NCBI GenBank assembly: GCA_001275005.1
Contig: JWZX01003251.1
Coordinates: forward strand, 1 to 53,933
Origin: Chrysochromulina tobinii
Taxonomy: Eukaryota
Direction: 5' to 3'
DNA: 53,933 bases
Shown: one piece after another, positions 378 to 49,300 of the stretch
How the letters are laid out: the number at the start of each line of letters is the position of its first letter
How positions within the stretch are numbered: position 1 is the stretch's first letter
The notes under the pieces: model-generated
Database searches by the model: none
The model's input: only the letters and a program-made list of their open reading frames with translations
What the model was told of the DNA's origin: nothing
Made by a program: the position numbers and the translations under genes

Positions 378-457
378 CTAAGCATGCGCCGTGGTGTGCA
401 AGAGGGAGCTAGGGGGGGGAGACACGCAGGCAATCAGGGGCCATCAGAGGCACTCAC
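378..457 (-). other. Putative spliceosomal intron (80 nt) containing the decamer satellite
   Basis: Minus strand TCG|GTGAGTGCCTCTGATGGCCCCTGATTGCC...CATGCTTAG|GCAG. The host transcript is not identified. Confidence 0.5.
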
Positions 458-1304
458 CGAGGCCGCCTCGAAGCTGGCAACAGAGCTGTGATGTGGGGGA
501 GGGCGAGGGGAGGTCAAGAATGGGGATGATGTGCTGTGGGAAGAGAGTTGCTTGGCCGCCGTGTGGTTCTCGGTCGCCCACAAAACACTGCAAACTCGAA
601 AGGCGCAGGACCCGCGAGGTACACGCGCGACGGCGCTGGATAACGTAGCTTCCTCGTATTTCGCTGTACTCGACTCCGGTATGCTCCCACCGGCTGGGGC
701 TCCTTCTGCCACGATCGATCCCGCGGGCCGTCCTGCGGACCACGGTCCCATGGAGAAAGCCGCATCACTCACAAGAAGCGTCGCGGCGGGCGAGGGCCTC
801 CGTGGCCATGTCCTGGGGCAGCCAACTGTCTTCCACAAAAACGAAAGGGCGTGGGGGTGCAGTAACTCACTACTCAGCAGTAAAGCGGTAGAATCGGAAG
901 TGAGCGCGCTTTCGGCCGTACCCGTAGCCGACCTAAGCCGACCAGCGACCACGCACCATGTGCCACGCGCACGGTCGTTCCGTGGTCCAGTTCGCCATGC
1001 TCCGGTCCGATCGGTCGCACCGTTGTCTCGTACACGTTGTCTCGTGCGGCCCAGCGACACGGGCACTATATTCGTGGTCACTCAGACTCCGACTCTCACC
1101 GACACGCCGCGCGCCGCCCGCGCAGGGTCCGCTCATGGGTCCGCTACCCACTCGGTAGCCTCACATTCTTGCCCGGTTTATAATAAGAGTTGCGCTCACT
1201 CGCGCCTGGACCCGGAGGCGAGGAGCCTGCCTGAGGCTGAGCCCCGCCCGCTGCCGCCGCGCCAGCCGCGCCCTCAGATGGAGCTAGATCGCCTTAAGAT
1301 CGCC

Positions 1305-1680: not shown

Positions 1681-1719
<39 letters not shown>

Positions 1720-1732
1720 TTCCGCTGCTGCC

Positions 1733-1766
<34 letters not shown>

Positions 1767-4435: not shown

Positions 4436-6152
4436 ATGCGCGAGGACTGCCTGCCCGAGCTCGTCGCAGCTCAGACCGAGATGTGCCAGATGCGTGACGA
4501 GCTTGAGGCGTATCGAAGAGGCGACCCCACCTCGAGACGCGCCGAGGCGGCTGAGAGGGAGCTGCGTGATCTCCGGGCACAGCTCGCGGCGGAGATCGCG
4601 AGCTCGGCGGAGCACTTCGAGGCGAGATCGAAGCTCAGCGACGAGATCGCCGAGCTCAGACTCCAGCTCGAAGCCGAGAAGAAGCGCTCGGCGTCGCTGC
4701 CCTCGCCTGGCGCGAGTCCAGAGGAGGAGAGCGTCAAGCAGCTCAAGAAGAGCTTGAACGAGGCGAAGGAGGAGCTCGAAGCGGCGCATCGGGCGATTCG
4801 GGCCAAGGAGGTGATTGCCTCTGAGTGCCTGCCTGAGTGCCTCGCTGAGTGCATCCCTAATTGATTTCAGGAGAGCTCGGCTCAGAAGGAAGCGGGCGTC
4901 TCATGATTGCCACGGATTGCCATTGATTGCCACTGATTGCCACTGATGAGCGCTGATTGAGCAGGAGAGCTTGGCCCAGAAGAAGGAGGGCAGCCTCCAA
5001 GCGGCCAAGGAGCATGCCGAGCTCGTCGCCCAGCACGCTGCCCTCGTGACAAAGGGCGACGAGCTCATGCGGACCGTCCGGCTGCAACGGCTCGCCGCCA
5101 AGGCTCTCGGCATGCTGTACGTCCAACGGCTGAGCTCCCTCAAGAGGCAGCTGCGGAGGATGACCGAGCGCTCGCAGGCCGTTGAGGAGATGCTCGAGGG
5201 GGCGCCCGTCGAGCGCGCGCGCCTGGTCGACGAGAATGCCAAATTGAAGCGTGACGCGGCCAGCGCCCTCGCGGCGGTTGAGCCGCTACGAAAGTCGCTC
5301 ACGCATGCAAACTCCGAGATTCGTCAGCAGGCGATGCGTCTTCAGCAGCTCCACTCAACGGCGGAGCGGCTCGAGAGCACCCGGCGTGTCAACGCTGAGC
5401 TGCGGACTACGAATGAGGAATTGCTCGAGCACGTCAGATTCCTCACGAGATCGCTCTCAGAATCGCAATCTCGCGCGGACGTGATCAAGGTCCAGCTGCT
5501 CGATGTGCAGGGCAACCACGCACGTGTCCTCGCGCGGCGGGATACGGAGCGACGGGCCCTCGAGATCCAGGTGCGCTAATGACGCCTGATGACGCCTGAT
5601 GACGCCTGATGACGCCTGATGACGCCTGATGACGCCTGATGACGCCTGATGATCCAGGTGCGCTGATGGCCTCTAAGGATCTCGGATGGCCTTGGATGGC
5701 CTCGGATGGCCTCTGATCGTCCGCATGCCCTCGAGATCGCATCGAGATCGCAGCTGGCCGAGGTGGTTTCGCGTGTGCGCGAGCATGAGAAGGCATTCCT
5801 CGGGGAGCAGCCCCTATGGCTCCTCAAGGAAATTAAAGACGCTGCCCGCGAGGCACGCGAGCCCCGGCGCGAGCGCTCACCTCGGGCCGATCTCCCGCCG
5901 CCGCTCCCGCCTTCGACGGCAACTGCCCAGACGCCATCACCGCGATGGGGCATCGCTCTGCCGACGGTGCACGCTGCTGCGATGCCTGTGCGCCCTGGCC
6001 CCACAAGGGAGGCAGCGGGGACCCCGCGCTCACGGCGGCAACTCGCGCGCGTCAAGCCGCCGCCTATCGCGGGATCCATGCCGCCGCGACAGGCGGAGGC
6101 GGCGAACGAGGCCGAACTCGGCCCCGTTGACGAGTTGCCCACCCAAGCATGA
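4436..6152 (+). CDS. Coiled-coil hypothetical protein; exons 4436-4810, 4965-5570, 5754-6152 (possible micro-exon from 4871; start may be ATG 4356 if one G is missing)
   Basis: Three heptad-rich ORFs join in frame through phase-0 GT-AG introns 4811-4964 and 5571-5753. Confidence 0.75.
4811..4964 (+). other. Decamer-satellite intron with internal acceptor (4870) and diverged copy of the downstream exon start
   Basis: GAG|GTGATTGCCTCTGAGTGCC...TTTCAG GAGAGCTCGGCTCAGAAGGAAG...(TGATTGCCAC)n...GAGCAG|GAGAGCTTGGCCCAGAAGAAGG. Confidence 0.75.
5571..5753 (+). other. Decamer-satellite intron with a duplicated donor junction
   Basis: GATCCAG|GTGCGCT occurs at 5564-5577 and 5651-5664. GACGCCTGAT x7 spans 5581-5650. 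The acceptor CGCAG|CTG at 5753 restores the frame. Confidence 0.85.
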
Positions 6153-6545
6153 GGCCGATGACGAGTACTTCGATCTTCATAACAATTTTCTTTTTAGATT
6201 TTACTTCGTTGGGAGGAGTCAGACAGCGTAGGGGCGGGGAGAGAGAACAGTCGTATACGTTTTAGACTTTTAGTCCATGGGCAAAGAAGTCGTGCAGCAC
6301 AAACTTAACGGGTACAGTCCGTTCCCTTGAGTCCGCTCGCACTCTACATTGGGTAAATGAGCCCTACATAAAACAATGACTGCACGAAACGGCCGGCGAA
6401 AACCGTGTAAAGCCCCGCCCGGGGGCCGGCGGGATGTATAGCTAATCGGAGCGGAGATTCCAAACTTATTTAGGATTTTCCGCTGAATTTCCCGACTCCG
6501 CGCATAAACTCCGCGTCGCCCTTACGACGCCCCACCCATCCGTCA

Positions 6546-7202
6546 ATGAACATCGCGGTCTCCAGCCCGCCCAGTCCGGACTCTGTGCATAGTCCATTGC
6601 CGATATTTGCCGAACACACGCTTGCCTGCGCGCACGACGGCTGCGACAAGCGCTTCTTCAGGCGAAGTGATCTCAAGAAGCACGGGGGCTTGCACACGGG
6701 CACCAAGCTATTTGCTTGCGACCACGAGGGCTGTGGCAAGAGCTTCTCGTCCTCGAGCCACCTGACGACGCACAAGCGCACGCACACCAACGACCTGCCG
6801 TACACTTGCGACCACGAGGGTTGCGCCAAGCGCTTTTCGCAAGCGAGCAACCTCCGGTCGCACATCAAGCGCACACATATGGGTGAGAGGCTATTTGCCT
6901 GCGAGTTTGAAGGCTGTGGCATGCGTTTCATGGACTCAGCCCACCATGTGGCGCACAAACGTACGCACGCGGGTGAGAAGCCATATGCATGCGACTACGA
7001 GGGCTGTGGCAAGAGCTTCTCGCAACCGAGCAATCTCAAGTCGCACCAGTGCAGGCACACTGGTGAGAGGCTGTATGCCTGCGACATCGATGGCTGCGGC
7101 AAGAACTTCAGAACGTCGAGCGACCGAGCGAACCACAGGCGCACGGACACGGACACTAAATCGTATGGCCTCGACCACGACAGGTGCGCAAAGGGCATAT
7201 AG
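6546..7202 (+). CDS. C2H2 zinc-finger protein (5 intact Cx4C fingers, 6th lacks the last His, 7th degenerate)
   Basis: Repeated C-x4-C-x12-H-x3/4-H with TGE(K/R)PY-like linkers, e.g. CDHEGCGKSFSSSSHLTTHKRTH. Confidence 0.92.
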   Translation: MNIAVSSPPSPDSVHSPLPIFAEHTLACAHDGCDKRFFRRSDLKKHGGLHTGTKLFACDHEGCGKSFSSSSHLTTHKRTHTNDLPYTCDHEGCAKRFSQASNLRSHIKRTHMGERLFACEFEGCGMRFMDSAHHVAHKRTHAGEKPYACDYEGCGKSFSQPSNLKSHQCRHTGERLYACDIDGCGKNFRTSSDRANHRRTDTDTKSYGLDHDRCAKGI

Positions 7203-7275: not shown

Positions 7276-7454
7276 CCAGGAGTGGCGCCGGGTGTGCCAG
7301 GAGTGGCGCCGGGTGTGCCACAAGGCGAGCCAATAAGAGACGAGCTGAAGCTGGAGCTCCCTTGAGCTCCCTTCAGCCGTGGGACGTGAGTGCCTACCAT
7401 TCGAAGCACCCGAGATCCCCATCCCAGACGAGCTGAATCTGGAGCTCCCTTGAG
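7276..7454 (+). repeat. Intergenic direct repeats: 21-bp tandem x2 and a ~29-bp dispersed pair
   Basis: CCAGGAGTGGCGCCGGGTGTG x2 at 7276-7317; AGACGAGCTGAA(G/T)CTGGAGCTCCCTTGAG at ~7338 and ~7426. Confidence 0.85.
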
Positions 7455-7989
7455 TCTCGTGTTGGTCCAACCAACGAAAGGCCCGCGCTCCTGGTCCCGA
7501 CCTGTGTGCACTCTGCGTGTGCACCTGGCGGTGCACCTCAGTGCGTCAGCGTGCGCCTGCGTGGCCGACGCCCCTCCTCAACACCTGATCCTGCGTGGTG
7601 CGTGCCCAACCAGTACCAAAGGCTACCAGTACATAGATCCGTGATATGATCGGTACCGGTAGGCTACATGCTGTTGAGTCGGCCGCGGATTCGGTCGTCG
7701 CGCGGACCCGTGCGGTGCGGGTGCGTGCGTGCGTTGCGTTGGTGTGGGTTGGGTTGGTTGCGAGGTTCGTCTACCTGGTTCGTCTGTGATATCCGTGTGC
7801 CCGAGAGGTACCGTTGGTACCCGAGTGGGTAAAAGGCACCAGGGGGAGCCGGGACACACACGTGACACACGGGCGCACACGGGACACACGGGCGCACAGC
7901 ACCAATTGCACAGCACACGGATCACACAGTCGTTAAGCTTCACTTGAATTCATACATACTTGTACGAAGATTGACGAAGTTCCCGACCC

Positions 7990-9195
7990 ATGTTTGTCAC
8001 CGACAAGGCAGCCGGAGCATCGGCGCTGTCGGGCGTGCTCAATCTGTTGAATTCGATCATCGGAGCTGGTATACTCGCGTTGCCGTTTGCATTCAAGAGC
8101 GCCGGTCTGCTGGTTGGCATAGGGTACCAAATCGTCTTCGGCTTCATGACACTGTATGGCATCGTGCTGCTGCTCGAGTCGCTGAAGTTTGCGTCCGTCC
8201 GCTCATACGAAGACTTGGCACTGTGCGCGCTGGGAAGGGCGGGATGGTACGCCTACAATTTCAGCTCCATCTTCAGCGGCTATGGCTCGTGCACTGGCTA
8301 CTTGGTGATCATCGGCGACATCCTGCCGGGGCTCCTCCAGGAGCTCGGCTATGTGCTTTCGCGCGAGTCGCTCATGTGCGCCGTCAGCGTCGTGCTCATC
8401 TTCCCTCTGTGTGCGCTGCCTGAATTCTCCGCCCTCCAGTACGCGAGTGGCCTCGCCGTCGCCATCTACGTCTGCTTCACAGTTGCCATCGTGCAACTGT
8501 ACTTCCAAGGCAACGGCGGCAGTGAGCCTCTTGACCCTCCTCCCTCGATGTTTCGAGAGGACTTTGGCGCCTTCATCTCGGTCGCGCCGCTCTCCGCGTT
8601 CGCATACCAGTGCCTGACGACCCTCTTCCCGATTTATCAGGAGCTCGCGGTGGCCACGCCCGCCCGGATGACTCTCATCTCAGCGATCGCCCTTGGGACT
8701 GCTGGAGTGATCTATTCGAGTGTGGGTGCGGCCGCGTACTTGCACTTTGGCGAGGCGACCCAAGGCGACGTGCTGTTGAACCTCGAGTCGATCGGCAGCC
8801 CAACGATGCGCATCATGCGCTTCAGCTTTGGGATCTCAATCTGCTTCACATACCCTACCATGCAGTTCGCATGCAGACGGTCGCTTGACCAGCTGCTCTT
8901 CCATTCCAAAGAAGGCAACACCCCGTACCTTCGCCTGCTCGCACTGACGGTGCTCATCGTGAGCTCGACACTATGGCTGGCGCTCTACTCCCAGAAGGTC
9001 GAGGTCGTCTTCGGGTACGCGGGCGCGATTGCCTCGACCTCGCTCCTCTTCATCCTACCACCGTCGATCGCGCTCTCGCTCCATCCGCACAAGCCGTGGT
9101 ACAACTACCTTTTCCTTCTGGCAGGGCTGGCGTGCGGCATCCTAGGCTTGCTGCAGCAGCTCGCAGAAGACGTGCAGAGTGGGGGTGAAAGCTAG
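7990..9195 (+). CDS. Amino acid transporter, AAAP/Aa_trans (SLC38/AVT-like) family
   Basis: GVLNLLNSIIGAGILALPFAFKSAG, SYEDL, AFAYQC and GDVLLNL motifs; ~11 TM segments. Confidence 0.93.
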   Translation: MFVTDKAAGASALSGVLNLLNSIIGAGILALPFAFKSAGLLVGIGYQIVFGFMTLYGIVLLLESLKFASVRSYEDLALCALGRAGWYAYNFSSIFSGYGSCTGYLVIIGDILPGLLQELGYVLSRESLMCAVSVVLIFPLCALPEFSALQYASGLAVAIYVCFTVAIVQLYFQGNGGSEPLDPPPSMFREDFGAFISVAPLSAFAYQCLTTLFPIYQELAVATPARMTLISAIALGTAGVIYSSVGAAAYLHFGEATQGDVLLNLESIGSPTMRIMRFSFGISICFTYPTMQFACRRSLDQLLFHSKEGNTPYLRLLALTVLIVSSTLWLALYSQKVEVVFGYAGAIASTSLLFILPPSIALSLHPHKPWYNYLFLLAGLACGILGLLQQLAEDVQSGGES

Positions 9196-10580: not shown

Positions 10581-11759
10581 TCACATGGGCGGTGGCAGCC
10601 CGTTGCCCTGCGCGATGGACGCCATGAAGTTGATCTTCTCGGCCTCCTTGGCGCACCACACCATGCCCTCGTCCGAATAAACCTCATCGCGGTCCATACA
10701 GAAGAGGATCTGGCCGTCGGCGCCGTCGTACGCCTCGACATCGGCCTTGAGCACGTACATGTCTGAGATCTTGCCCTTCTCCTTGATCTCGGACAGGATC
10801 ATCTCCTTGGGCACCAAAGCGTACGGGAAGTCCTTTGTGAGTGTGCTGAGCCCAAAGTACTCTTTGGACGTCGGGCCGAGGAAGACAGAACGTGCGGCGC
10901 CCTTGACACGGGGCGGTATGGGGCCCTCGGGCATGGGGGGGCGAGGCTTCTCCACCTTCGGCTCGGGCGGCTTCTCGCCGCGCGCGAGTGCCTCCGCTAC
11001 CAGCCGCTCCTGCTCCGCCTTGGCCGCCGCCTCGGCCGCCTCCCTCGCCTTCTCCGCCTCAATGCGCGCCGCCTCCTCCGCCGCCGCCTTCGCCTCGGCG
11101 GCGATGCGCTTCGCTTCTTCCTTCTTGGCTTTCCGTTTGGCCGCGCGCTCCTCCTTGAGCGCCAACAGCCGCGCCGCCTCCGCATCCGCCGCCGCCTTCA
11201 CCGCCGCCGCCTCCTCCGCAATGCGCGCCGCCTCGGCCGCTGCCTTGGCCGCCTTGATCTTGGCCGTGTAAGGATCGTCATCGAGGGCCTTGGACCAGGG
11301 CACGATGTCGGGCGTGACCACGCACGGCGACGTGTTCTTCCAGAACCCTTCCGGAGAGAAGTACACCACACCCTTGATCACCTGGCCCTCGTACTCCTGG
11401 GTGCACGACGTCTTGATCAACGGGTTGGCGGCGTACACCTCGGGCGCGGTTGGCCGGTTGCAGAACGGGTCGTGCGGCGGGTAGTAGTCGTAGAAGATGG
11501 CCGTGCCCACCTTGTCCAGCTTCTCCTCAGACGCGGCCGCGAGCTTGTTTGCTGGGTCGCGCGGGTCATCTTTGTAGAGCACGAGATTGTCGATCGGGTC
11601 GCCATGCCGTGCCTTGATGAAGGTCTCGAGCTCGGCGATCGACAAATACGGCAGCTGTACCTCGAGCTGGAAGTCCATCGTCTTCCACGGCACGCATTTG
11701 ATCTGCACCACCTTGACCTCAGGCGGCGGCGGTGGCGGCTCGGGTGGAGGCTTGGGCAT
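10581..11759 (-). CDS. Hypothetical protein: ubiquitin-like N-terminus, Ala/Glu/Lys helix, C-terminal region resembling the WDR63/IC140 N-terminal domain
   Basis: 392-aa ORF with strong GC3 bias. Domain resemblance is recalled by eye. Confidence 0.75.
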   Translation of the reverse strand: MPKPPPEPPPPPPEVKVVQIKCVPWKTMDFQLEVQLPYLSIAELETFIKARHGDPIDNLVLYKDDPRDPANKLAAASEEKLDKVGTAIFYDYYPPHDPFCNRPTAPEVYAANPLIKTSCTQEYEGQVIKGVVYFSPEGFWKNTSPCVVTPDIVPWSKALDDDPYTAKIKAAKAAAEAARIAEEAAAVKAAADAEAARLLALKEERAAKRKAKKEEAKRIAAEAKAAAEEAARIEAEKAREAAEAAAKAEQERLVAEALARGEKPPEPKVEKPRPPMPEGPIPPRVKGAARSVFLGPTSKEYFGLSTLTKDFPYALVPKEMILSEIKEKGKISDMYVLKADVEAYDGADGQILFCMDRDEVYSDEGMVWCAKEAEKINFMASIAQGNGLPPPM

Positions 11760-12219: not shown

Positions 12220-14515
12220 CTACGACTCGCCGGTTTTGACTAGCACGCACCCGACCTCAGCGAGCGCGCGCGCCACGTCGAGTCGCTGAGCGTCCGAGTC
12301 GCAGGGAAGCTTGGCGACGCTCACAAACTTGGGGTACGACGCGAGCACGTGCTCGAGCGCGGGCGCCGCCTCGATGGCAAAATCAATCTTATCGGGCTCA
12401 TCCCTCTCGCGGTAGATGCGCGTGTTCTGGGCGCTGTGGTACAGGGCGGCGACCTCGAGGCCGTCCGCGCCGCCTCCCTCGACAGCTAGGCGCGCGACGC
12501 GTCGGGTGGTGAGCCGAATCTTGCTCGCGAGGGTCACCTGATTGCGGCAATCAGCGGCAATCAGATGCAATCAGATGCAATCAGAGGCAATCAGGTGAGC
12601 CGAATCTTGCTCGCGAGGGTCACCTGATTGCGGCAATCAGCGGCAATCAGATGCAATCAGAGGCAATCAGGTGAGCCGAATCTTGCTCGCGAGGGTCACC
12701 TGATTGCGGCATTCAGCGGCAATCAGCGGCAATCAGCGGCAATCAGCGGCAATCAGGTGAGCCGGATCTTGCTCGCGAGAGGCACCTCCTCCGGCGAAGC
12801 CGGCAGGCGCGACGCGTCGGCGGGCGCGTGTGCGATCGGTAGGCGCTCATGAATGTAACGCTGGCAGCAGAACATATCGGCCATACCATCGAGCGGCATG
12901 TGCTCGACAAGGTCGTGCAGCATTGCACGCAGGCGCGCCTGAATCGCCGCTCGGCGCAGCGCGTGCTCCGTCACCTCCGGCGCCGCGCCTGCAAGGGGCA
13001 GCCCAAAGGCGACTCATCAGTGGCAATCAATGGCCATCAGTGGCCATCAGTGGCCATCAGTGGCCATCAGTGGCCATCATTGGCAATTACCTGCAGGGGG
13101 CAGCCCAAAGGCGACTCATCAGTGGCAATCAGTGGCCATCAGAGGCAATCAATGGCCATCAGTGGCCATCAGTGGCCATCAGTGGCCATCAGTGGCCATC
13201 AGTGGCCATTACCTGCAGGGGGCAGCCCAAAGGCGACTCTCGCACGCTCGAGCTCCGCTGGGTCGAAAGGCAGGTGGCCATTCGCGGCGTCCTCGGCGGC
13301 GGTGGCGGCGGCGTGGGCAGCAGCGGCGGCGGCGTCGCCCTCCTCGTCGTTGGCATGCAGCAGCCCAATCCGATCGAAGAGGTCAGGTGGAAGGGTTTCG
13401 CGCCAACTCGGCTGGGCCACCGTCAGGGATTCCATGGCACCGAAGACGCCGAACTCAAGGAGATCCCTCCACGTGTGCTGACGACCGAGTGAGGCGGTGA
13501 CGTGGAGCGACGGGTGCGTCTGCGCGGCCGCCTGGTGCACGAAGCCGCGTGGAAGGTACAGCAGGTCGCCGGGACGCAAGGTCACCTGCCCGATCAGGCG
13601 GCCGAGCTCGTCGGGGAGCAGATTGGGGCTCGAGAAGCGCGGCAGCGCCTCATCGGAGGTGCGGGGGGCGTAGACACGCCACTCCTTGGTGCCCTCGAGC
13701 TGCAGCACGAGCGCGTCGATGTCGTCCCAGTGCGGTGCGAACCCCTGGCTGCCCGCCGGCGTGAGGTACGCATTCGCGCCCGCCATACACCCGAAGAGCT
13801 CCTCAAGCTGAGAGAGCATCCTCCATAGAGGGTCCGACCGACGCTGGGGCCACGAGAAGCGGATGGAGCAGCCCTCGGCGTAGCGCTTCCACACCTCCTC
13901 GGGCGTCGCGATCCCTTCGCCGTTGTGCGTCGTGCGCACGCCCCCTTCATACCGCGCAGCGTCCACCTCGTCCGTCCAGCGCATCCCTCCCTCACGGATT
14001 TGGCGCTCCATCTCGGCGCGCGAGAACCAGCCGTCGTAGTAGGTGCGATCGGTGCGCGCCACGTGCAGCGGCCGTCGGCCGTAGATCTCCTTTAGGAACG
14101 TCTCCGCACTCACCGGCCCGACGAGCCACGCGAGAAACTTTAGAGCCTTGTCGGAACGGTCGGGCATCGAGGCGATCTCCGGGCCCGTCTGGCCAATGAA
14201 GGCGCGGTCGTCGGTGACTGTCTCGAGCATCTCGGAGACTTCTGGCGCGGTCTCGATACCCCAGGCACGATCGGTGGAGGACGGCTCCTTATCCTGCTGC
14301 AGCTGCTGATGTGCCTTCTTCTTCTTGCCCTTGGGAGCAGCGGCGGCGGCGGCATCGCCGGATGGTGAGGACGTCGTCGTCACGGCGGACGGTGCCGCCA
14401 CTAGCCCTGGGGGTGGCGCCTCCTCATAGTCTTCGTCCCGCGAGCGCTTGAGCTCCTTCTTTGGCTTCTTTGGCTTCGGCGCCGGGGCGGGCAAGATCGG
14501 CGATGGCTTCGGCAT
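12220..14515 (-). CDS. RIOX1: Ribosomal oxygenase 1 / NO66 (JmjC, Cupin_4); exons 14515-13213, 12988-12786, 12537-12220
   Basis: GANAYLTPAGSQGFAPHWDDIDALVLQLEGTKEWRVY, LRPGDLLYLPRGFVHQA, SLHVT and YIHERLP motifs, plus a C-terminal ALEHVLASYPKFVSVAKLP. Introns are phase 1 and phase 0 and keep the frame. Confidence 0.9.
12538..12785 (-). other. 248-nt intron made of three units (86, 76, 86 nt), each a 30-nt copy of the downstream exon plus decamer satellite ending in CAG
   Basis: GGTGAGCCGAATCTTGCTCGCGAGGGTCAC (+ strand) at 12508 (exon), 12594, 12670 and 12756 (27/30 match), separated by (GGCAATCAGC)n-type repeats. Confidence 0.88.
12989..13212 (-). other. 224-nt intron made of two units (122, 102 nt), each GTAAT plus decamer satellite plus a 27-nt copy of the upstream exon end
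   Basis: CTGCAGGGGGCAGCCCAAAGGCGACTC (+ strand) at 13213 (exon), 13091 and 12989 (1 mismatch), separated by (TGGCCATCAG)n. Confidence 0.9.
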
Positions 14516-37347: not shown

Positions 37348-40300
37348 ATGCTGGCGCCCCTTGACCCGAACCAGGCCGGCTTTGGGTTCTCACCCAAGCC
37401 GCAGTATTCCACAGGTGACACGCCCCTCTGGGAGAATCCCATCTTCGCCGACGTCGTGCTCGGCCGCAGCCTCGATGACGGCAAGAGGGGCTTGCCGCCT
37501 CCGCCGAAGCTGACGGTTGGGTCACTCGTCGAGTCGATCAACCTGGTCATGTTCCAGACCCGATTTCTCTTTGAGGACCCGCAGACCGCGGGCGCGCTCA
37601 AGCAGACGCTCGGCAGGATCTACTCGGCGCTCGAGCGCGCGGCCGGGATGACCAAAACCTTTTCGGCCATTTCGGACATGTCAGGCTTCTTCGAGCTGCT
37701 CACGACCTTTGTGGCGCAGGTGAAGACGCTCACGCCTGGTGCGAGCATCATCGTGCCCGGCGGCTTCCAGGAGGGCTCGCTCAAGCGCGGCACGCACTCG
37801 CTCATGATGTACGTGCTCCACTGCGACTCATTCGAGGAGTTCACGCTCGCCATCTGCTCGACGGGCGACGGGCTCGAGTACCACCCGGCGCGGATCGACC
37901 CAGCGACGGGCGCGACGCAGTACAATTCGCCGCTGCTCCTGCGCAAGATCCCCGCGCACAAGATCCGTGACGGCTCAGTCTGGTTCGTCCTGCTGCGCGC
38001 CGCCCTCTTCCCCGACGCGAAGTACACGAGCGCGCTGCTCTACCAGACCGTGTACCCCTTCCTCAACAACCGGCCCATCCTCGCGAACCTGAGCTCGGTG
38101 GAAGCGACCGGTGGCGCGCAGCCCTCTCCTCCACCCTCCCTCCAGCAGGCCGGGCGCCCGCCGGTGCCGCCGATCCCCGCGCGTTGGCTCACGCCGCCGG
38201 CGACCGGCGACCCCTACGGACACGAGCTCGTCATGCTCGCGGCGACGGTGGCGCTCCAGCTCGCGGCGAGCGGCCAGTTTGGCGCGATGCCCCAGTACGG
38301 CGGCGGCTTCGGCGCCCCCTTTGGTGCCCCCCCGGCCGGCGGCGCGCCGCCTCTTGTGCCCTCGTACTCGTCCGACGGGGTTGAGCTGCTGCTTAAGCAG
38401 CAGCTTTTGAATCTGGGCGCGATGGACCTCAGGATGGCTCTCGAGAAGCACGGCAGTGTACCCGTCTCGGCCATCGAGCTCCTCTCCCGCGCCGCACGGC
38501 GCCTCTCCGCCTCGTCGCCGCGTCTCGCCTCTGGCGCGGCCACGCTGGCGCCATCGGACTTGCACGCGTTGCAGGGGGCTGTGGAGCGACTCGATGCGCA
38601 GCTGAACGCCGCCAAGGCCGCGGCGAACCAGCGGATGCCGCTGCCGCCGCCCGCGTCGCCTGAGCTCAAGGGCTCGGCGCTCTTCCCACTGCTCGATGAC
38701 GTGGCCGCCTCGCCGAACGTTGAGAATCTGGCGGGTGACGCGTACGAGCCACCGATCGTGATGCCGGTCGAGCTCACGGCGATCCCAGAGACGGTGGCCA
38801 ACTTTGCGGAGGTCTCGAACGCGCTGCAAAGGGCGTCCGAGGTGTGCACGATCCTCGCCAACCAGCGCGAGCTCGTGGCCGATTCGTACGCGCTCCGCGC
38901 CTCGTTGCTTGGTCACCTCTTCCTACGCGTGCTGCCGCTGCCGCTGCCCATCGGGCGTGCGGACCGCAAGATGCGCTGCTTCTGGGCCAAGTCCGGGCTG
39001 AAGATCACGCACGACACGCAAGCCGAGATCCTCCGTTGGCTCTTTGTGCTCGCGCGCCACTACTCTGCGGCCTCGCTCTCCATCCCCCTCGCGCCTCAAG
39101 CCGACGCGACGCGAATGTTGGTCTTCGCGGCCATCGTCGCGATCGCGGACGCGGTGCTGCGCCTGCGCGCGTGCGATGTGCCCTCGCACCTCTCGCTGCA
39201 CTACGCGGGCGAGAATGAGGGGCCGTCTAAGCCGTTTGCCCTCGAGATGCGCCACCTCGAGATCGAGACCGAGCGCGCGCAGTTCCCGTACCCGCACCTG
39301 GCCGCCTCGCGCACCATCCTTCTCGACTACTTCCGCTCGTGCTCGGTTGCGGCGTCTCCGGATCGGCACATCTTCCGCTTCGAGCGCACGATGGGGCTGG
39401 GCGAGGGCGAGCGCCAGCTGCTCACGCAGCTCTGCGCGCAGCTCGCCTTCCTTCGCACCGACAAGCACCTGTCCGCGTACCTCTCGAACGAAGATCCGAG
39501 CCTCGCCGAGCTCTACCCGGAACTGCTCGCTTTCCGCGACATCGTGTACCTGTGCAAGCTCATGACAGCGCCGTCTGCGGACAACCTGCCCGAGCTGCGC
39601 GCATGGACGCCCGCTGACGCGCGCCTCTCGTGGCGCTTCAAGGAGGGCACCCCCCCGGAGGAGCCCAAGAAGGGGGGCAGCAAGAAGGCGGCCTCGACCC
39701 CCCCCTCACCGGTGAGTTCATCGTGACCGGCTTCGGCGCCGAGATGAAGTCGATGACGTGGGTCGATTCCACAGGCGAGTACGCGGCCGCCAAGAATAAG
39801 TCGTTCCTCGACCGTCTGCTCGGCAAGGGTGGCTTCCGTCCGCGCCTGCCTCCCTCGTCCGCGGAGGCGAGCGTCCTCGCGGGCGCCAAGGTCGACACCG
39901 AGGATGACGTGCTGCACCTCCGCCACCTGCCGGATTTCGGGGGGGCGCTGCGCGCCTCGGATGTGGAGTACATGCTTCAGGCGCTGCTCGCTCCCTATTT
40001 GCGCGTGCCGCTGCTGCTTCGGTTCTTCGCCGACCCCATGCGCACTTCGGCCCTCGCAAAGCCCGAGCTGCAGCAGATGCTCGATGCGGCGCTGTACGAG
40101 CCCGGCGAGTGGCATCCCGATGTGCCCAAGGTGGCGCCGACGACGGTGCCCACCATGGATCGCTCGGTGCTCGCGACGCCCGCGGGCTTGCTCTTCAATG
40201 AGCTCACGCACTCGCCCGCCGCCTCGGTCGCCGCGATCGTCACCATCGTCGAGAACGCACTCGACCTCGATGCTGGTCGTTACGTCAAGGCGGGCTCGTC

Positions 40301-43300
40301 CTCGGCCATCCTGTACGCCATCCGGCTCGCTTGCCGCATCGAGGCGTTCCTCACGTACCTCCTCTCGCCAAAGGCGGATGAGGTCCGTGGGCTGCGCATG
40401 ATGAGCACGGCGGACTTTGGAGGCGTTTCGCCGGCCAAGACGAAGCTCCTGGCCGCGGCGAACACACTGCGCCGCAAGCTCATGGACCACGGCCTGCCTG
40501 TGCTGCAGGGCTGGTACGCGCGGCTGCGGCGCGATGGCATGTCCCGCGACGCGTGCACCGTGGCCGCACACATGGCCTTCATCTACGGCGACTACCCGGC
40601 CGTCAACGACACGCCCGCTGCGGCGCTCAAGACCGAGCCACTCCCTGGCACGCCGGAGGCGGCGGCGGCGGCGGCGGCGGGCGAGCCGTGTCCGGTGGAC
40701 GCGCGCTTCACGATGATGATGCTCTCGACGCGCGTGTTCCTCAACGTGAACCACGACTTCGAGATCGAGCCTGATGTGATGACGGGCTTGATGGGCGCGA
40801 GGACGCGCAAGGACCGTAAGCGCAAGGTGGAGGTCTCTGCCATGATGAACACCGCCATGGGTGAGCTCGGCTACGCGCCGCTCGATGTCTTCGACCTTTG
40901 GCAGCGCCACCTGCATCGCGTGCTCGCGTGGCTCAAGGCTAACCCCGAGCAGGCGTCCGACATCATGGAAGCCATCGTGCGGCTGCTCTCGGGTCGGGAC
41001 AAGGGCATCAAGACGCAGGGCGGCACTCGCCTCGTCACACGCGAGTGGGCGTCCATGAAGTTCACCGGCTGCGACGGCCGCTACATGCCCAACTCGGCGG
41101 CCACGGTGGCCAACCCCGCTCGCGCGGCCGTCGCGCGTGCGGGCTGGGGCTCGGAGAACGACGCGGAGGCCGACGCAGCGGCCAGAAGTGGCGGTTACGT
41201 CGCGTGGCTGCGTGTCAAGGTGTCCGCGGCTGCGGAGACGGAGATCAACGTGCAGCTCGGCGAGATGACCCTCAAGCGCCACCACATGCAGCTTCTGGAC
41301 GCGAGCGTGTGCGCACACCCCGACTTTGCAGCCGTCTTCGGTGACACCTCGACGCGCGGCCGCCATCAGTGCGCCGAGGTGAAGCGCTCGCAACGGCGCC
41401 GTTGGATGCGGCTGCTCGGCACGCGGCACGACGTCCAGATTTGGGATGCCGACGACCGCCCGCCCCCTTCGCCCGGCACGGCGTTGGTATCGGGGCTGCT
41501 CGCGCAATGGCTTGAGGAGACCCTCCGGCCGATCAAGGTGGCGGTGCCGTTGCTGGCCCACCCCGAGGCCCCGAGGCTTAACCTCGTCGAGGCGCACGAT
41601 ACGTATGCGAAGCTCTCCGTCGTCGTCGAAGGCGTCCTCAAGGAGCTCGTGATCTATCGATTCCCTGCCGTATTGAACGTGTTCAACGTGACCGAGCACG
41701 GGCGAAAGTGGGTTCGTGAGCTCGTGTACACCTCCGACACGGCGCGCTGCTACGGCGACCCGATCGCGGGCGGCGGCTTTCAGGGCGCCGTGGTGCGCAA
41801 GCCTCGTCCGCACTGGACGGCGGGCGATATGGCCGTGAGATCAGAGCCGCAGTCGACGCTCGTCATCATGCGCCAAGCGGCCAATGTCCAGGCGAACGCG
41901 CCGAATGCGACGCAGATCTTCGTGCCCACCCGGCAGCTCAACGGCATGATGCCCGAGGCTCTCCTCTCCCAATACCTCTTCTGGCGCGACTCGGCTGGTC
42001 AGACGCTCGTGGGCCACCCGATGCCAAAGGGCGACGAGGAGCAGGACTACACTGGGAAGGTCGTCGCCAAGGCCGAAGCGGCCAATGCCGCCGGCGGCGC
42101 GAGCGGCGCCGCCGCCGCCGGATCGCCAGAGCGCCCGATGCCAAAGGGTGATTCGAGCCAAAACCAACGGCTGCACCTCGCGGGCAAGGAAGAGGTCACG
42201 GTCACTTGCCAACGGGGTGGCTCCGTGATCCGTCGCACGCTGTGCGACGAGAAAGGCTCTCCGATCGCAGGCGAGTCCCGCCGACTCATCTCGACCCTCG
42301 GGGTGGACGCCTCGTCGCCCTATGGAAAGATGGTCGCGCTCCTCGAGAGGGTCGAAGACCTCGCGCACGTCCTCGTCTGGTCCCTGCCCCAAAAGGAGAT
42401 CGTGGACACCGCCAACAACCCGTTTGCGAAGGCGAGCCAGGCCATCGAGGCGGCCGCGACCGACACCCCCAGCGACAGCATGGCGGCAAACCCCTTTGCC
42501 AGCATGGCGGCCTCGGTGAGCAAGGGCGTCGCGGCCATCGCAGAGCAAGTCCAAGGCCCCGACAGTGAAGTGCCCGTCGGCCTCATCGAGCTACCTCGGC
42601 TCAATCTCGCCTTCGAGGCGAAAAAAGGACCCGACGGCCTCGTGCGCATGTACTCACGTGAGAACCCCGGCCTGTACATAGGGACGCTCGAGGGACCGCG
42701 CGCCTCGCACCTGCTCTCGGGACTGCCGCACGCCCTCGTGCTGCTCAACGAGGAGGGCGATGCCTCGGTGCTCCTCTCGGCGCTCGCCAAACCGATCCGG
42801 CTGGCCGACCCCGATTCGGCCCTCTCGGCGCAGATGCTGCTTGCACGCGCCTCCAAGAAATGGCTTTCGAACCTGCCGACCGTCACGCACTTTCTGTACA
42901 GCGTGCACCGCTCGCAAGCCTTCTTGACGCCGCCCACGCTATCGGCCACCCTCAACCTGCTCGTGCTCAAGTGGCTGGCGCGCGACTTCGAAGCGGTATT
43001 CCACTTGGCGCCCGCGTGCGCCGTCGACGGCGCCCTCTCGCCCGACGAGCTCCAGCTGTGGCAATGCGTGATGGCGCTCGAGGACGACGTCGAGCCCGAG
43101 GCGCACGCGTGCCGCCTTCGTCTCTCCCTCGCGACGCGATCGTGTGCGGCCATGGTGGCCGAGATCAATTGGACGGTGCCTCAGCAGCTCGCCCTCTACC
43201 TGAACAAGCTCCAGTTCATACCGGCGTCATGCCAGCTTGCGGCGCCCGACGAGCTCATCCTGCTGCGTGACTATGGCGCCGAGCTGCCCGAGACGCGCGC

Positions 43301-46300
43301 GCGCATCGCCTTCCTCGACGCCGCGATCGATGCGACGCTCGCCAAGGAGGCAAGCGCCAACAACCCCTTCATGGCGGGCCAGATGCCCGCACCCACCCTC
43401 CAAGCCAACTACCCCGCGCGTCCCAAGTACGTCGAGTTCGACGTCCAGATGGACGCCCCTGCGCTGATCATGGCCCCCGAGGCACTCGCCGGCTGGCAGA
43501 AGAAGCTCTCGTCCATGTCGTACTCTCGGCCGGATGAGGAGACGGGCTTGAAGGCGCTCAAGGTGATCTCCGACTGGCTGCGGCCAGACGTGATCCGACT
43601 GGACTCGGACTCGAAGGGCTTCTGGCTGCTGTACGAGATGTTCACGAGCTCGATCAATCTCAAGATCCTGATGGACGACTCGACGTTCGCGCTCGGCTCG
43701 CTGCTGCTTCGGCTCGCGGCCAAGGGCGCAGGCGATGAGCTCCTCCCCATTTTACGACTGATGGAGACCAACCAGGCGTTTGCCAACGAGATGCCCAAGT
43801 TCAAGGACACGCGGAGCAAGGGCATGATCACGGGCACGATGTTCAAGGGCAAGGCCGGCAAGGGCATGCCCGAGGAGATCCACAAGGCGCTGACCAACCT
43901 GCTGCCGCGCCTGCCCGGCGGTGGCAAGTTTCTGGAGTACCCGCTGTACTCGCCGCCTCAATCGGTGCCCATGCCGGCGCTCCGCGATCTGCGCACCATC
44001 CACCGCACGTGGCTCAACCCGACAAGCCTCGGCTTCATGCAAGAGCAGCGCCCAGTGCCCCCCGCCTTCCTCGCCGCCGCCGCGCCGGGCGCCCTCGCGT
44101 CGCTTGTGCTCGCGCCTCTGGACCCGATGAGCTTCATCAGCCAGGCGGCTGCGGCCGGCGCAGGCGGCACCGCCCCCGCGCGGCCGCCGACCTTAACGGT
44201 CGAGCGCCACCCGTCGGCCACGACGGTCGTTGCGCGTAAGATGAACAAGCGCATCCTCGAGGACCTGCAGTGGTTCTTCGCCCAGGGCAACTCCTCTGGC
44301 CCGCCGAGGCTCTTGACGTTCGAGGTGGATATGGGCACCGGCTTCGGCGGCCAGCTGCCCCCCGTCGCCGACTTGCAGGCACGCGAGAATCTCGTCAAGC
44401 GGCTTTTGGCGGCGCTCGAGCAGTTGTACAAGCAAGACATGAAGAGCGCCGATGAGCAGTTCCCTCACGTGCAGGCGCTCGTGATCGAGGGCGGCGCGAG
44501 CGCGCCCGAGGCCGTGCGGCGCGCGCGTGCCCTCGCGCAGCTGGCCGGTTGCGAGCTGCGCCCCTCGATGGAGCTGCTGTGCGCCCTCCTCATGAGCACG
44601 CAGGCGGAGGCGGAGATCAAGGTGCTCAACCCTCTGCTGAGCGATGCGGAGGTGGAGCAAGTCTTCTCGGCGCTCACGGCGCTGCTACTCCTCTACTCGC
44701 GCGCTCAGCTGCTCTCTCGGGCGATCGTGCTGTGCAAGAAGCTCGTCGACTCTCTCGCGGCGCTCGTGCGGGAAGCAAGCCGCGGCGGCAAGCCGGCGCC
44801 TGAGGCGCTCGCGCTCGCGGCAGACGCGCAGGCAATCGGTGACCAACTCGGCGCGATGATCTCCACCCGACGCGCGCACATGCAGCTGCCCGGCGCCAGC
44901 ACCCCCGGCGCGCCGGCGCCCACAGCTCGGCTCGACCCGCGGATCTTGGTCTTCGAGTTCTGCGCGGGGATCGTGCTCCGTCCACCGCAGGTGCACCTGC
45001 TAGATAAGCTCGTGCGCTGCGCCCGCTCGGGCGGCTCGGTGTGCCACCAGATGCTCATGGGCGAGGGCAAGACCACGACGGTCTCGCCTCTTCTCGCTCT
45101 CATGCTCGCTGATGGCACGCAGCTTGTGATGCAGGTGGTGCCCGCGCCTCTGCTGCGCTTTACGCTGCAGGTGATGCGCGGCGTCTTTCGCTCCGGGCCA
45201 CTTCGCAAGACGGTCGCCACCTTCGCCTTCGACCGGCGCACCGTGGTGGATGAGAACCTGCTGCTCGCCGCGCACCTCGCAATCCAGCAGGGCGCCATCA
45301 TGGTCTCGACGCCCGCGTCGGTCAAGGCCTTCCTGCTCAAGCTGCTCGAGCTGCTCCACCTACTCGACACGGGGCAGTACCCTCGCATGCACATGTCGCT
45401 CGGCCAAAAGGCGCGAAAGCTCTTCGGCTTCAAAGTGCCGCCCGAGGCGGGCTTTGACAAGCCCTTTCTCAAGGCGCAGGCGGCACGCGCGGTGCAGATG
45501 CTCCAATACTGGCGCGGCGCCGTCGCGGTCATCGACGAGGTCGACATCGTGCTCCATCCCCTGAAGAGTGAGCTCAACTGGCCCCTGGGCGACCGCCATC
45601 CGCTCGATTTCAACCCTACGCGCTGGGAGATGCCGTGGTATCTGCTCAACGGGCTCCTGATGGCCGTCGACTGGAAGAATGACGCGAGCGCCGCTTCGCC
45701 TACCGGTACGTCTGGCGGCACGTCGGTGGGCGGCAAGGAGGCGACCGTGCTGGAGCGGCTGCACCATGCCATCAACACAGGCCTCCAACAGCGCGTGATG
45801 CAACGCGTGCCGCACGTCATCCTGCTCTCCGACATGTTCTACGTGAACACGCTCAAGCCGATCCTGGCCGACTGGCTGATGCTCTATCTGCGCAAGAATG
45901 GTCTGCGCGACGTGACCGACGAGCAGGCGATCAAGTGCCTGCTCAATGGCAAGATCACCGTCCAGGTGCAGTCGGCCCTCTCAGACCGTCACGTCAAGAT
46001 GCTCAACTTGGGCTGCGATTGGCTCGGGTTCCTCATGCCGCACGTGATCCGCAAGATCTCCCGTGTGCATTATGGGCTGCTCAAGCCTCAGGAGATGGCG
46101 AAGATGAAGGCGGAGGGCGGGCTCCCGCGATCTCGCCGCTATCTCGCCGTCCCCTTTGTTGGCAAGGACGCGCCTTCGCACGCCTCCGAGTTCGCGCACC
46201 CGGACGTGGCAATCGGGCTCACGATCCTCGCCTACCGGTACGAGGGTCTGCGCCTGCTCGACTTCGGGCCCGCTCTGCAGCTGCTCCGGCAGGTGCTCAG

Positions 46301-49300
46301 CGAGGAGGCGGGCCCCATGCTCAAGCGCCCCTCGTCGATCATGTGGATTCAGTGGATGGGTGCCGTAGGGCGCAAGGTCCGAGGCACTAAGAAGCTCGAG
46401 GATAATGAAACCGCGGCTGGACGGCTCCAACAAGCGGCCGCCGGCGCGGCGGGCACGACGGCGCCCGCCACGGCGAGGAAGGCGTCCAAGTCGATCGACC
46501 TCAACAAGGACGGCATGGTGGACTCGATGGAGCGTGGGCACGCGCTCGACGCCGTCGTGGGCGTCGACGTGTCGGAGGGCTCGACGGACATTTTGCCGTT
46601 GCACCTGCTCGATGTGAGCGACGTCGAGTACATGGCGATGCTCTACGAGCTGCTCAGCCGGAAGCCTGAGCCGATCAAGTTTTATCTCGAGGAGCTCGTG
46701 TTCCCCGACACGACGGCGCATCAGCCGATGAAGCTCTCCGCCAACGGCCAGGATGTGGGCGGCGCGATGCTCTTCTCGCGACGCATCGGCTTCTCGGGAA
46801 CCCCTTCGGGGCTGCTGCCACTCGAGATGGGCGACTGCGTCTACTCGATGGGAGACGACGCCAAGATGCTCAAAACGCTCACCGACCCGCTCATCGTCTC
46901 GCAGCAGTTCATGCCGGCCGCGTGGGACGTGCCGACGCTCCTCGAGGCCGTGGTCGCGCATCAGCCGCCCGCGCATGCCCTCATCGACACGGGCGCGCTC
47001 GTGACCGGCATGTCGAACCTGGATGTGGCCCACTTCTTGCTCAAACGACTGCCCGCGGACAAGTACGATGGCGTCGTGTACCTCGAGCCGGGCGGGCACA
47101 AGAAGATCCTGCTGCGCGGCACCGCGGGCGCCTCCTCGACGATGGACATGGAGCGGTGCGGACTTCCCAAGGAGCGCCGCTTTTCGTTCTTTGACCAGGT
47201 GCACACGACGGGCATGGACATTCCCCAGGGCGCGAGTGCGTGCGCCATCCTGACGCTCGGGAAGGACATGGTGTGGCGTGACTACGCCCAGGGCGCGTAC
47301 CGCATGCGCGGCATCGGCAAAGGGCAGACGATCCTCCTCTTCGTCATCCCTGAGGTGCAGCGGCTCATGGCGTCCGAGACGGCCCTGGGCGCAGGCACCA
47401 CGCGCGACGTGCGTGCGGCGCAGATCGCGGCTCTCCCGGAGCAAGAGCGACGTCGACAGGAGCTCGAAGCTGTGGCGAGCTGGCTCGTCATCAACTCGAT
47501 GAAGAGTGAGCGCGTGCAGTTCGAGCTCTGGTGCCTGCACTGCTCCCAGAATGTGTGGCGCAAGAAGGCAAAGAATGGTCTCGTCGCGGGCCACGCCAAC
47601 TTTTCGGATGCGCGCGAGGGCAAGGGCGCGTCGGCTTTGGAGCGGCGCATGCTCGAAGTCTTCCGGGAGGGTGTCGAGCGGGACATTAGCAACTCGGTGC
47701 CTGTGGCCACGGACACGCGCCAGACGATCGCTTCGCTCGCGCAGCAATACGCCGAGCTGTGCGACGAGATGCACGAGATCAAGGCCATTGAGTCTGTGCA
47801 GGCGATGCTCGCCGGGTACGCGCCCGAGCTTGACGTCCCTACCGAGTCGCACACCGAGAAGGCCAACGAAGCCGCCGCCTTCGACCAAGAGCAGGAGCAA
47901 GAGCAAGAGCAAGGTACGATCGGCTCCTTGCCGCCTTCTCTGTTCCTGCCTTATTTCTCTGTGCTCGCCTTCTCTGTGCTCGCCTGCTCTGTGCTCGCCT
48001 GTTCTGTGCCTGCCTGCTCTGTGCTCGCCTGCTCTGCTATGCCTGCTCTGCGCTGCCTGCTCTTCGAGCGCACCCTGCACCACGGATGATGAGCAATGTC
48101 CTCCAAGATCGCTACGGCCAATCGGATGCTGCCCCCCTCGGGCGGCCGACGAAGAAGGGCGTGTGCTCTGACGAACCTGACGAACCTGACGAGAAGAAGG
48201 GCGTTTGCTCTGACGGCTGGCCGCCCGTCTTCTTGTCACCCTTGCTCTTGACGCACCCCCCTGAGCCCACCTTCCCGCCTGTGCCTCCCGCCACGCAGAG
48301 CAAGAGAAGGAGCAGCAGCAGGAGCAGCAGAAGGAGCAGGAGCAGGAACAGGAGCAGGAGGACGAGGAGTATAAGAAGGAGAAGTACACGCGCGAGGAGG
48401 AGTTTGGCAAGGTGTGGGAGCTCGCGGCGCTGGCCCAGAACCCGCCCAAGCAGGACGTGCTCGGCTTCTTCCAGGTGTCCGAGTTCTCGGTGCACCGCTC
48501 GTTCCTCAACCAAAAGGGGCCGCTGCGCTGGCCCAATTACCTGCAGTTCTCGTCCGACCACACGCACCCACGCTGGCGCTTCCAAGGGCACCATCGGCTC
48601 AAGAACATAATCGCCGTCATGGAGTGGGCGCCCGACGTGGCTGCGGCTGCGAAGAGTAGCTCAACCTACACTGGCGGCGCCGCCGGAGGCGGCGCGGCGA
48701 TGGCGGCGCTCACCGACGGGCAACGCCAGCGGCTCTCCCGCGTCTTCCAGATGTATGTGCCGAGTGGCTGAAGGACGTTTTGAGTGCCACTGAGTGAGCT
48801 TCTGAGTGCCTCCGATGGCCTCCCTCGTCAGGTACGATGCCGAGGGCCGAGGCGCGCTCGGCGAGCAGCGGCTGCGCACCATCCTGTCCGACATGGGTCT
48901 TGAGCCCGAGACGGTCGCGGCCGAGAAGCTCGCAATCGAGGCGCTCTTTAGCAGCCTGCGCGCCTCAGGCGCCATGAACTGCGACCCGAGCAACGGCGAG
49001 CTCCGTGTGCCCAGCATGGAGTTCCTGCGCGTCATGCAGGCGCAGGAGTTCCTCGTGGGCGAGATGGGCCGGTACTGGGTCGCCCTCTCGCTCCGTGAGG
49101 CGGAGACGCTGCGCGGTGCGCTCCACGCGGCCATGGACGGCGAGACGGCGCTCGTGCCCAATAGCAAGGTGGCCGTTGGGCTGCGCATCGGCGACCTGCT
49201 GCTCGATGCCGTGGGCGGCGCAAAGGGCGACACGGACGGGCGACCCGACGACTACCACCAACCGCCGCGCCTGCAGCTGCAGAGCGCCGTGCAGGCGTTC

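What the first reader, a model, noticed from the sequence alone, without database searches (positions are those of the whole stretch)
378..48831. Candidate intron-generating system: decamer satellite plus long exon-derived direct repeats carrying the splice sites
Seen: six of the eight introns I can model (378-457, 4811-4964, 5571-5753, 12538-12785, 12989-13212, 48753-48831) contain variants of one 10-nt repeat. Four of them also carry 12-30-nt copies of the adjacent exon; in the two NO66 introns the copy supplies the GT or AG, so splicing removes the insert plus one copy exactly. Established: introners in Micromonas and Aureococcus use short target-site duplications, and tandem duplication of AG|GT is a classic intron-gain model. 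Inference: these are recent gains by satellite insertion with ~30-nt target duplication and no TIRs, unlike transposon-type introners. I cannot confirm that this is undescribed.
Basis: partly seen in the sequence, partly recalled or inferred. Interest (0 to 1): 0.85.

Follow-up and report, generated by a model that had tools for sequence, protein, structure and literature searches.

The report
Half-intron capture makes new introns
In the alga Chrysochromulina many introns are a 10-base repeat array bracketed by a 12-60-base copy of the neighbouring exon, and that copy supplies a splice site; this likely marks a repair-type process that makes new introns by pasting half of an existing intron into a duplicated target.

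Summary
Real and widespread. The window is Chrysochromulina parva/tobinii-like DNA. RNA contigs splice 4 of the 6 named introns at the stated coordinates; 378-457 and 48753-48831 are unconfirmed. In 674 kb of fetched loci, 109 of 365 decamer clusters sit between direct repeats, against 7 of 1095 mispaired and 34 of 1095 random-site controls. Fifty are GT/GC-AG compatible at a repeat end (repeat 12-61 nt, median 27); exact removal keeps the frame in 39 of 44 scorable. Fillers carry one intron end, show junction microhomology and no TIRs. A TRM1 intron of this type is absent from 97-98%-identical alleles on contigs up to 17 kb and from outgroups: indirect evidence of gain. Against: no empty allele for the window's introns, intron 12538-12785 may be shared with an 84% relative, and many repeats are later junction duplications. 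A satellite-free family has the same footprint, so the satellite is cargo; the scan noted that family's footprint earlier in this genome (e1-2577349). New variant of staggered-break intron gain; enzyme unknown.

The parts
12223..14515 (-). NO66/RIOX1 gene (JmjC plus winged helix), three exons
   Evidence: spliced frame open for 631 codons; Pfam JmjC_2 and RIOX1_C_WH on the C. parva model P0133; homologue P0002 aligns across both junctions
12989..13212 (-). NO66 intron A, 224 nt, two tandem units of donor + decamer array + exon-end copy; acceptor AG comes from the copy (class II)
   Evidence: RNA contig X12 record 15 joins 12987 to 13212; copies
13212..13239 (-). exonic original of the 28-nt repeat (ends CAG|G)
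13090..13117 (-). inner copy, 28/28
12988..13015 (-). acceptor-supplying copy, 27/28
   Evidence: on DNA contig record 7 of X1
12538..12785 (-). NO66 intron B, 248 nt, three tandem units of exon-start copy + decamer array; donor GT and acceptor AG both lie in the 32-nt repeat (class I)
   Evidence: joint 12534>12783, CT..AC at cut +3, X13
12756..12787 (-). donor-supplying copy, 29/32
   Evidence: on DNA contig record 7 of X1
12670..12701 (-). inner copy, 32/32
12594..12625 (-). inner copy, 32/32
12508..12539 (-). exonic original of the 32-nt repeat (begins AG|GT)
4811..4964 (+). intron, 154 nt, two arrays separated by an inner copy (4868-4897, 25/30) of acceptor + exon start: later junction duplication
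   Evidence: RNA joints
5571..5753 (+). intron, 183 nt; donor junction duplicated (5564-5577 = 5651-5664) around a perfect decamer run; exon-end copy at 5728-5738 near the acceptor
   Evidence: RNA joints
378..457 (-). candidate intron, 80 nt, two or three degenerate decamers, no long exon copy; splicing not shown
   Evidence: no joint
48753..48831 (+). candidate intron, 79 nt, degenerate decamers and the usual acceptor end, no long exon copy; not tested with RNA
   Evidence: flanking ORFs

Best explanation
These introns consist of a filler carrying one intron end, set between two copies of 12-61 bases of the gene's own sequence, and they likely arise when a staggered break or template switch is repaired by copying half of an existing intron, the other splice site coming from the duplicated target. 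Shown: the repeats, the two mirror-image layouts (class I: copy gives the GT, filler ends in the usual ...CATCAG acceptor; class II: filler starts with a shared GT motif, copy gives the AG), exact splicing for the window's cases, excess microhomology at the filler/repeat junction, no TIRs. Inferred: that the filler is copied from other introns (unlinked genes share non-trivial end motifs), that only insertions whose exact removal restores the exon survive, that the decamer persists because its CTGAT core can serve as branch point and its TGA as stops (43 of 50 introns have stops in all three frames), and that unequal exchange between the long repeats then multiplies units (two in NO66 A, three in B) and keeps copies alike. 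The enzyme (a polymerase-theta-like or synthesis-dependent repair route) is inferred from the junctions only.
For:: 109 of 365 clusters with flanking repeat score >=12 versus 7 of 1095 mispaired and 34 of 1095 random sites; of 94 outermost repeats 65 allow exact GT/GC-AG removal on the array strand versus 31 on the other strand; 27 class I, 23 class II (other strand 13 and 5); 22 of 50 repeats perfect; frame kept in 39 of 44 scorable of 50; microhomology mean 1.67 v 0.55 (15 of 27 class I scorable, p=0.002) and 2.0 v 0.56 (11 of 23 class II, p=0.016); one donor-end motif 8 times in 5 loci, acceptor motif 192 times in 58 loci; only 5 of 27 class I donors have exonic AG before them (30 of 75 in repeat-free reference donors, p=0.06); 6 of 23 class II acceptors are followed by non-G (2 of 52 reference, p=0.009), as expected for newly recruited sites; 45 of 141 array-preceded CATCAG acceptors have a >=12-nt exact upstream copy of the next exon start (null 0.4%), 80 of 141 a >=6-nt one (null 10%). 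Gain: TRM1 intron L043:6200-6274 is read into by 8 listed cluster members and read straight across by 6 that are 97.4-98.2% identical, on contigs of 1.8-17.3 kb; the longest exact run of that repeat is 14 nt, too short for assembly collapse; 33 of 44 more distant homologues span the site as one ORF, 5 of them on contigs >=2.5 kb longer than the gene. L021:13163-13546: 2 of 7 members, one haplotype, read across it and then stop inside the next intron's array. NO66: P0002 (about 70% identical, contigs 3.9-4.2 kb) is one ORF across both positions.
Against: No empty site was seen as DNA letters: 0 of 50 among the loci; the absences are read from gene-caller proteins and contig lengths, and RNA origin cannot be excluded for each. 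In 4 of 7 clusters tested every member that reaches the junction has the intron, as do 12 of 12 fetched NO66 exon-1 alleles and 15 of 15 for 4811-4964. P0330 (84% identical) starts exactly at the first codon after intron B, so that position may be old and its near-perfect repeats renewed rather than relics of birth. 44 of 94 repeats are not class I/II; most that I read are duplications of an existing junction. The L021 and L031 repeats (34, 35 nt perfect) could collapse in assembly. Mean microhomology is short and 0 in about a third of junctions. No donor intron was identified; preference for nearby donors is weak (p=0.017). No repair or retroelement gene was tested.
Confidence: 0.55

Rival explanations
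1. Target-primed reverse transcription: a non-LTR retroelement enzyme copies excised, debranched intron RNA (or a short SINE-like RNA ending in the acceptor motif) into a staggered nick. Class I would be 5'-truncated copies primed at the RNA's terminal AG; class II would be copies primed inside the array and extended to the RNA's first GT.
For: Long variable duplications, a fixed 3' end with variable 5' truncation and junction microhomology are the usual marks of this route (established knowledge, recalled). 23 of 27 class I fillers end in CATCAG; I saw no clear filler with foreign exon beyond the acceptor among the 44 other repeats (read by eye). A second family with a fixed non-repetitive module behaves alike.
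Against: Class II is nearly as common as class I and mirror-symmetric, which a DNA template switch gives without extra assumptions; selection alone forces surviving fillers to end at AG or start at GT; no partner reverse transcriptase could be looked for.
Confidence: 0.25
2. No gain: old, unstable array-bearing introns are remodelled. Junction segments duplicate by slippage or unequal exchange, and mRNA-templated repair or conversion replaces one old splice site by an exon copy; absences in relatives are precise losses through the long repeats.
For: Junction duplications in existing introns are common (4811-4964, 5571-5753, many of the 44); unit number differs between assemblies (56-nt unit, L029 v L082); intron B may be shared with an 84% relative while its inner copies are perfect; the first copy differs among alleles (P0311, P0312, P0331).
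Against: TRM1 site is uninterrupted in the sister lineage and in outgroups; class I donors and class II acceptors lack the exon context of the reference sites; DNA-only duplication cannot put an exon copy in exact mRNA register unless the site was empty.
Confidence: 0.13
3. Classic AG|GT tandem duplication with the array arising afterwards inside the new intron.
For: Intron B and two L031 introns have both sites inside the repeat.
Against: 22 of 27 class I sites have no AG before the GT; perfect repeats already enclose complete fillers with motifs shared between genes.
Confidence: 0.04
4. Assembly artefact at satellite arrays.
For: Short-read assemblies; no single X1 contig spans either NO66 intron, so the number of inner units is unverified.
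Against: Copies differ by substitutions; X1 record 7 holds both divergent outer copies; many independent gene calls read into the same copies; the C. parva model P0133 repeats the copied peptide three times; RNA skips the exact intervals.
Confidence: 0.03

Closest known systems
Intron gain by insertion at staggered double-strand breaks in Daphnia pulex (PMC4202315, passages read; model reviewed in PMC3020277 and PMC3443670, passages read)
   Same: Direct repeat of the exon end at the far end of the new intron; later rounds of staggered insertion inside young introns; microhomology.
   Different: Daphnia repeats are 4-12 bp (33 cases); here 12-61, median 27 (detection floor 12). Fillers here are recognisable halves of the genome's own intron families and the repeat itself supplies a splice site at high frequency.
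Introners of Chrysochromulina sp. TARA MAGs (PMC9860276, passages and part of the supplementary table read)
   Same: Same genus label; no TIRs; one splice site carried, the other taken from the duplication.
   Different: Reported TSD is 4 bp and families are alike end to end; that pipeline removed low-complexity families by hand. C. tobinii and C. parva appear only in its genome list in the stored part of the table (file cut).
Polarella/Symbiodinium introner-like elements (bioRxiv 10.1101/2020.10.14.339549, parts 1-2 of 4 read) and Micromonas/Aureococcus MITE-like introners (PMC11282704, passages read)
   Same: Splice sites recruited from the TSD in several registers.
   Different: Fixed 3-8 nt TSD per class, often TIRs; here length varies site by site and there are no TIRs.
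Tandem genomic duplication of AG|GT (PMC3443670, passages read)
   Same: Exonic duplicate gives splice sites and leaves the protein unchanged; fits intron B.
   Different: Most cases here take only one site from the duplicate and contain foreign filler.
10-11-bp tandem repeats in Emiliania huxleyi introns (Read et al. 2013; recalled, paper not held)
   Same: Decamer arrays in haptophyte introns are probably a known trait.
   Different: I recall no link to exon copies or intron birth; unverified.

Membership tests
Introner (as defined in PMC9860276) | family members similar from end to end, not low-complexity | tested here: not met
   fillers 29-422 nt, share one end and decamer arrays; the second family has a fixed core but was not aligned end to end
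Introner (as defined in PMC9860276) | short fixed TSD (3-9 bp) where present | tested here: not met
   12-61 nt, variable
Introner (as defined in PMC9860276) | TIRs (optional in the family) | tested here: not met
   end-to-end inverted match in 50 fillers no better than mispaired ends
Introner (as defined in PMC9860276) | splice site recruited from the duplication, exact removal | tested here: met
   RNA joints; frame kept 39 of 44
Introner (as defined in PMC9860276) | new positions absent from relatives | tested here: inconclusive
   indirectly met for TRM1 and L021, not for 4 of 7 clusters or the window's introns
Introner (as defined in PMC9860276) | autonomous transposase partner | not testable with these tools
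   no genome held for the window or the loci
Staggered-break repair gain (Daphnia type) | direct repeat shared by intron end and adjacent exon | tested here: met
Staggered-break repair gain (Daphnia type) | junction microhomology | tested here: met
Staggered-break repair gain (Daphnia type) | dependence on an end-joining pathway | not testable with these tools
   needs experiment
AG|GT tandem duplication | both splice sites inside the duplicate, no foreign filler | tested here: not met
   AG before the donor in 5 of 27 class I; filler in all 50
Non-LTR retroposition (SINE-like, TPRT) | variable long TSD, fixed 3' end, 5' truncation | tested here: inconclusive
   fits class I and the second family, class II is the mirror image
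Non-LTR retroposition (SINE-like, TPRT) | partner reverse transcriptase sharing the 3' end; internal promoter | not tested
   no genome to search; promoter boxes not looked for

The most novel reading that the evidence does not exclude
Most introns of this alga's main class were born, and are still being born, by one self-feeding process: halves of existing introns, possibly as excised intron RNA copied by a reverse transcriptase, are pasted into staggered breaks with 12-60-base duplications, giving the first genome where intron-to-intron propagation without a transposon can be watched as polymorphism, and one that introner screens discard as low complexity.
Probability: 0.3. Interest if true: 0.92.

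Novelty: new variant of a known kind. Interest (0 to 1): 0.76.

Why it matters
Where the sequence of new introns comes from is an old open question: break-repair gains seldom have a traceable source and intron transposition has few cases (PMC3443670, table passage). Here the footprint is long enough to read at hundreds of sites, the filler is recognisably intronic, and close lineages appear to differ in presence, so source, target and rate can be measured in a cultured alga. It also shows a class of gain that introner pipelines filter out, and explains mis-modelled micro-exons such as the tripled peptide in P0133.

Tried and rejected
No whole genome is held for the window, so genome-wide counts rest on fetched loci. 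The decamer pattern gave 0 matches in viral contigs and 10 in prokaryote genomes, none with the intron layout: not used. Contigs behind the loci could not be extended or searched for a reverse transcriptase. Strand test of arrays against a codon model was noisy (114 sense, 25 antisense, 154 unclear; known sense cases miscalled) and is not used; neighbouring clusters agree in strand 100 to 3. Local-donor test weak. Empty-site search among loci: 0 of 50. P0203 (L031) reads across its intron but is 100% identical to the intron-bearing allele and may be RNA or a collapsed 35-nt repeat: not counted as evidence. P0313 in the cluster is unrelated. No RNA joint for 378-457 is not proof of absence. Rows dropped before counts: 14 of 128 loci as redundant and 3 trimmed; 47 of 412 clusters without full flanks; 15 of 109 repeats inside longer tandems; 3 of 10 and 8 of 10 look-ups not in the collection. 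My notebook's '13 alleles' for NO66 is wrong; one search shows 12.

Full report
Source. The window is GC-rich eukaryotic DNA. The NO66 exon-1 protein falls in a 90% cluster that holds a Chrysochromulina parva model (P0133), and a TRM1 gene from a fetched locus is identical over 274 residues to a C. tobinii model. No whole genome is held for it.

Observation. The six intervals are GT...AG and carry decamer-like units. The spliced NO66 frame is open for 631 codons and P0002 aligns across both junctions. Intron A is two units with copies 28/28 and 27/28; intron B is three units with copies 32/32, 32/32, 29/32. DNA run X1, which may be the window's own source, holds both divergent outer copies on one contig but spans neither intron, so inner unit number is unverified; P0133 shows the copied peptide three times. 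Summed X1 depth over the arrays is 150-300 times the unique depth, so the decamer is a high-copy family.

Generality. Of 365 with full flanks, 109 have a flanking direct repeat scoring 12 or more after masking decamers, against 7 of 1095 mispaired flanks and 34 of 1095 random sites. The loci were chosen for holding an array, come from several assemblies of the same or close organisms, and include 9 window clusters. Of 94 outermost repeats, 65 allow exact GT/GC-AG removal on the array strand and 31 on the opposite strand. They sort into class I (27: copy gives the donor, filler ends mostly in CATCAG), class II (23: filler starts with GT, copy gives the acceptor), 15 with the site in the middle and 29 with none. 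The classes are defined by splice compatibility, so the independent test is the reading frame: a codon model trained on window ORFs (including NO66 exon 1) keeps frame in 39 of 44 scorable cases against one third expected. Repeat length is 12-61, median 27; 22 of 50 are perfect; median intron about 100 nt. Among 141 array-preceded CATCAG acceptors, 108 are followed by GT or GC and 80 have an upstream exact copy of at least 6 nt of the next exon (null 10%), 45 of at least 12 nt (null 0.4%) (inner tandem acceptors inflate this somewhat). The long repeats thus look like the visible end of a process that shaped much of this intron class. Most of the 44 other repeats that I read are second rounds on an existing junction, like 4811-4964 and 5571-5753.

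Nature of the filler. No TIRs. End motifs recur in unlinked genes. Repeat ends overlap the array register more than chance. A second family built on a fixed non-decamer module has flanking repeats in 25 of 33 cases against 6% (some are tandem units), so the satellite is one cargo among at least two. This agrees with an earlier unchecked note on the same genome (e1-2577349), which I cannot match to this family with certainty. Nearby introns are only weakly better donors than distant ones.

Gain. I tested presence/absence through gene-caller proteins, which stop inside an intron or read across an empty site. For 7 of 10 loci found: TRM1 has 8 listed members reading into the intron, 6 reading across it (97.4-98.2% identical, contigs 1.8-17.3 kb) and one annotated model; 33 of 44 more distant homologues span the site, 5 on contigs at least 2.5 kb longer than the gene, which polarises it as a gain if those contigs are DNA. 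At L021 two members of one haplotype read across and end in the next intron's array. One L031 member is ambiguous. Four clusters show only the intron-bearing state. For the window: 12 of 12 fetched gene-caller alleles (of 15 listed, 84 members) carry intron A, 15 of 15 listed carry 4811-4964, P0002 lacks both NO66 introns if genomic, and P0330 (84%) begins at the first codon after intron B, which suggests an intron or contig break within about 40 codons upstream. A relative at 80% (P0021) runs into a decamer array at a position where the window's gene has none. So gain is supported as a process, but perfect repeats are not a safe clock: they can be renewed.

Mechanism. Shown: layout, exact splicing, microhomology, shared ends. 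Inferred: a staggered break or template switch filled by copying half an intron, with selection keeping those that splice exactly, then unit expansion by unequal exchange (unit-number difference between L029 and L082). I put this at 0.55, reverse transcription of intron RNA at 0.25, remodelling of old introns at 0.13, and the rest at 0.07. The branch-point role of the decamer core is from consensus knowledge, untested.

Literature. Ten searches listed no paper describing long exon-derived repeats in haptophyte introns; I saw listings and abstract starts for most. Read in passages: PMC9860276 (and supplementary table rows; the file was cut, SI Appendix and FASTA files unseen and may bear on novelty), PMC12130899 (no haptophyte hit), PMC4580454 (one intron mention), PMC4028052, PMC3020277, PMC3152781 (irrelevant), PMC4202315, PMC3443670, PMC11282704; parts 1-2 of 4 of bioRxiv 2020.10.14.339549 (supplements closed). 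Read 2013 and Li 2009 are not held; the C. parva genome paper was not read. Decamer arrays in Emiliania introns are recalled only.

Verdict. Not an introner by definition, works like staggered-break gain with much longer duplications and intron-derived filler: a new variant of a known kind, interest 0.76.

Noticed in passing
L012, L014, L024, L026-L028, L037, L038 and others (35 sites in 22 loci): Second intron family with a fixed non-decamer module before the acceptor; 25 of 33 have flanking repeats up to 46 nt. None in the window.
   Followed up: partly
P0133 (C. parva model of window 12223-14515): The annotation turns the inner exon copies of intron A into micro-exons (peptide tripled); RNA here skips them.
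   Followed up: partly
window 13090-13117, 12594-12625, 12670-12701: Each inner copy carries an AG|GT junction, so the tandem units could be removed stepwise (recursive splicing).
   Followed up: no
P0021 (80% NO66 relative): Runs into a decamer array at a site where the window's gene is uninterrupted: the family is active in a related species too.
   Followed up: no
window 47914-48298: Intron-like stretch without the decamer, with its own short CT-rich repeats, inside a very long DUF3638/DUF3645 gene (39618-52003).
   Followed up: no
window 7369-8050: Another high-copy repeat region (X1 depth up to 21,000) with CACACGGG-type units, unrelated to the decamer.
   Followed up: no
window 6474-7202: Intronless C2H2-zinc-finger-like array (90-nt period); name recalled from the motif.
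   Followed up: no
window 16187-22696: 2169-codon intronless ORF with a weak C-terminal SLATT_1 match.
   Followed up: no
L027:~1255-1315, L020:~10600-10690, L025, L068, L136: Pure array insertions with 20-33-nt duplications and no compatible splice sites; candidates for neutral or antisense events useful to test the mechanism.
   Followed up: no
L001-L010: The same decamer occurs as short intergenic tandem runs in ten bacterial genomes; probably convergent.
   Followed up: no
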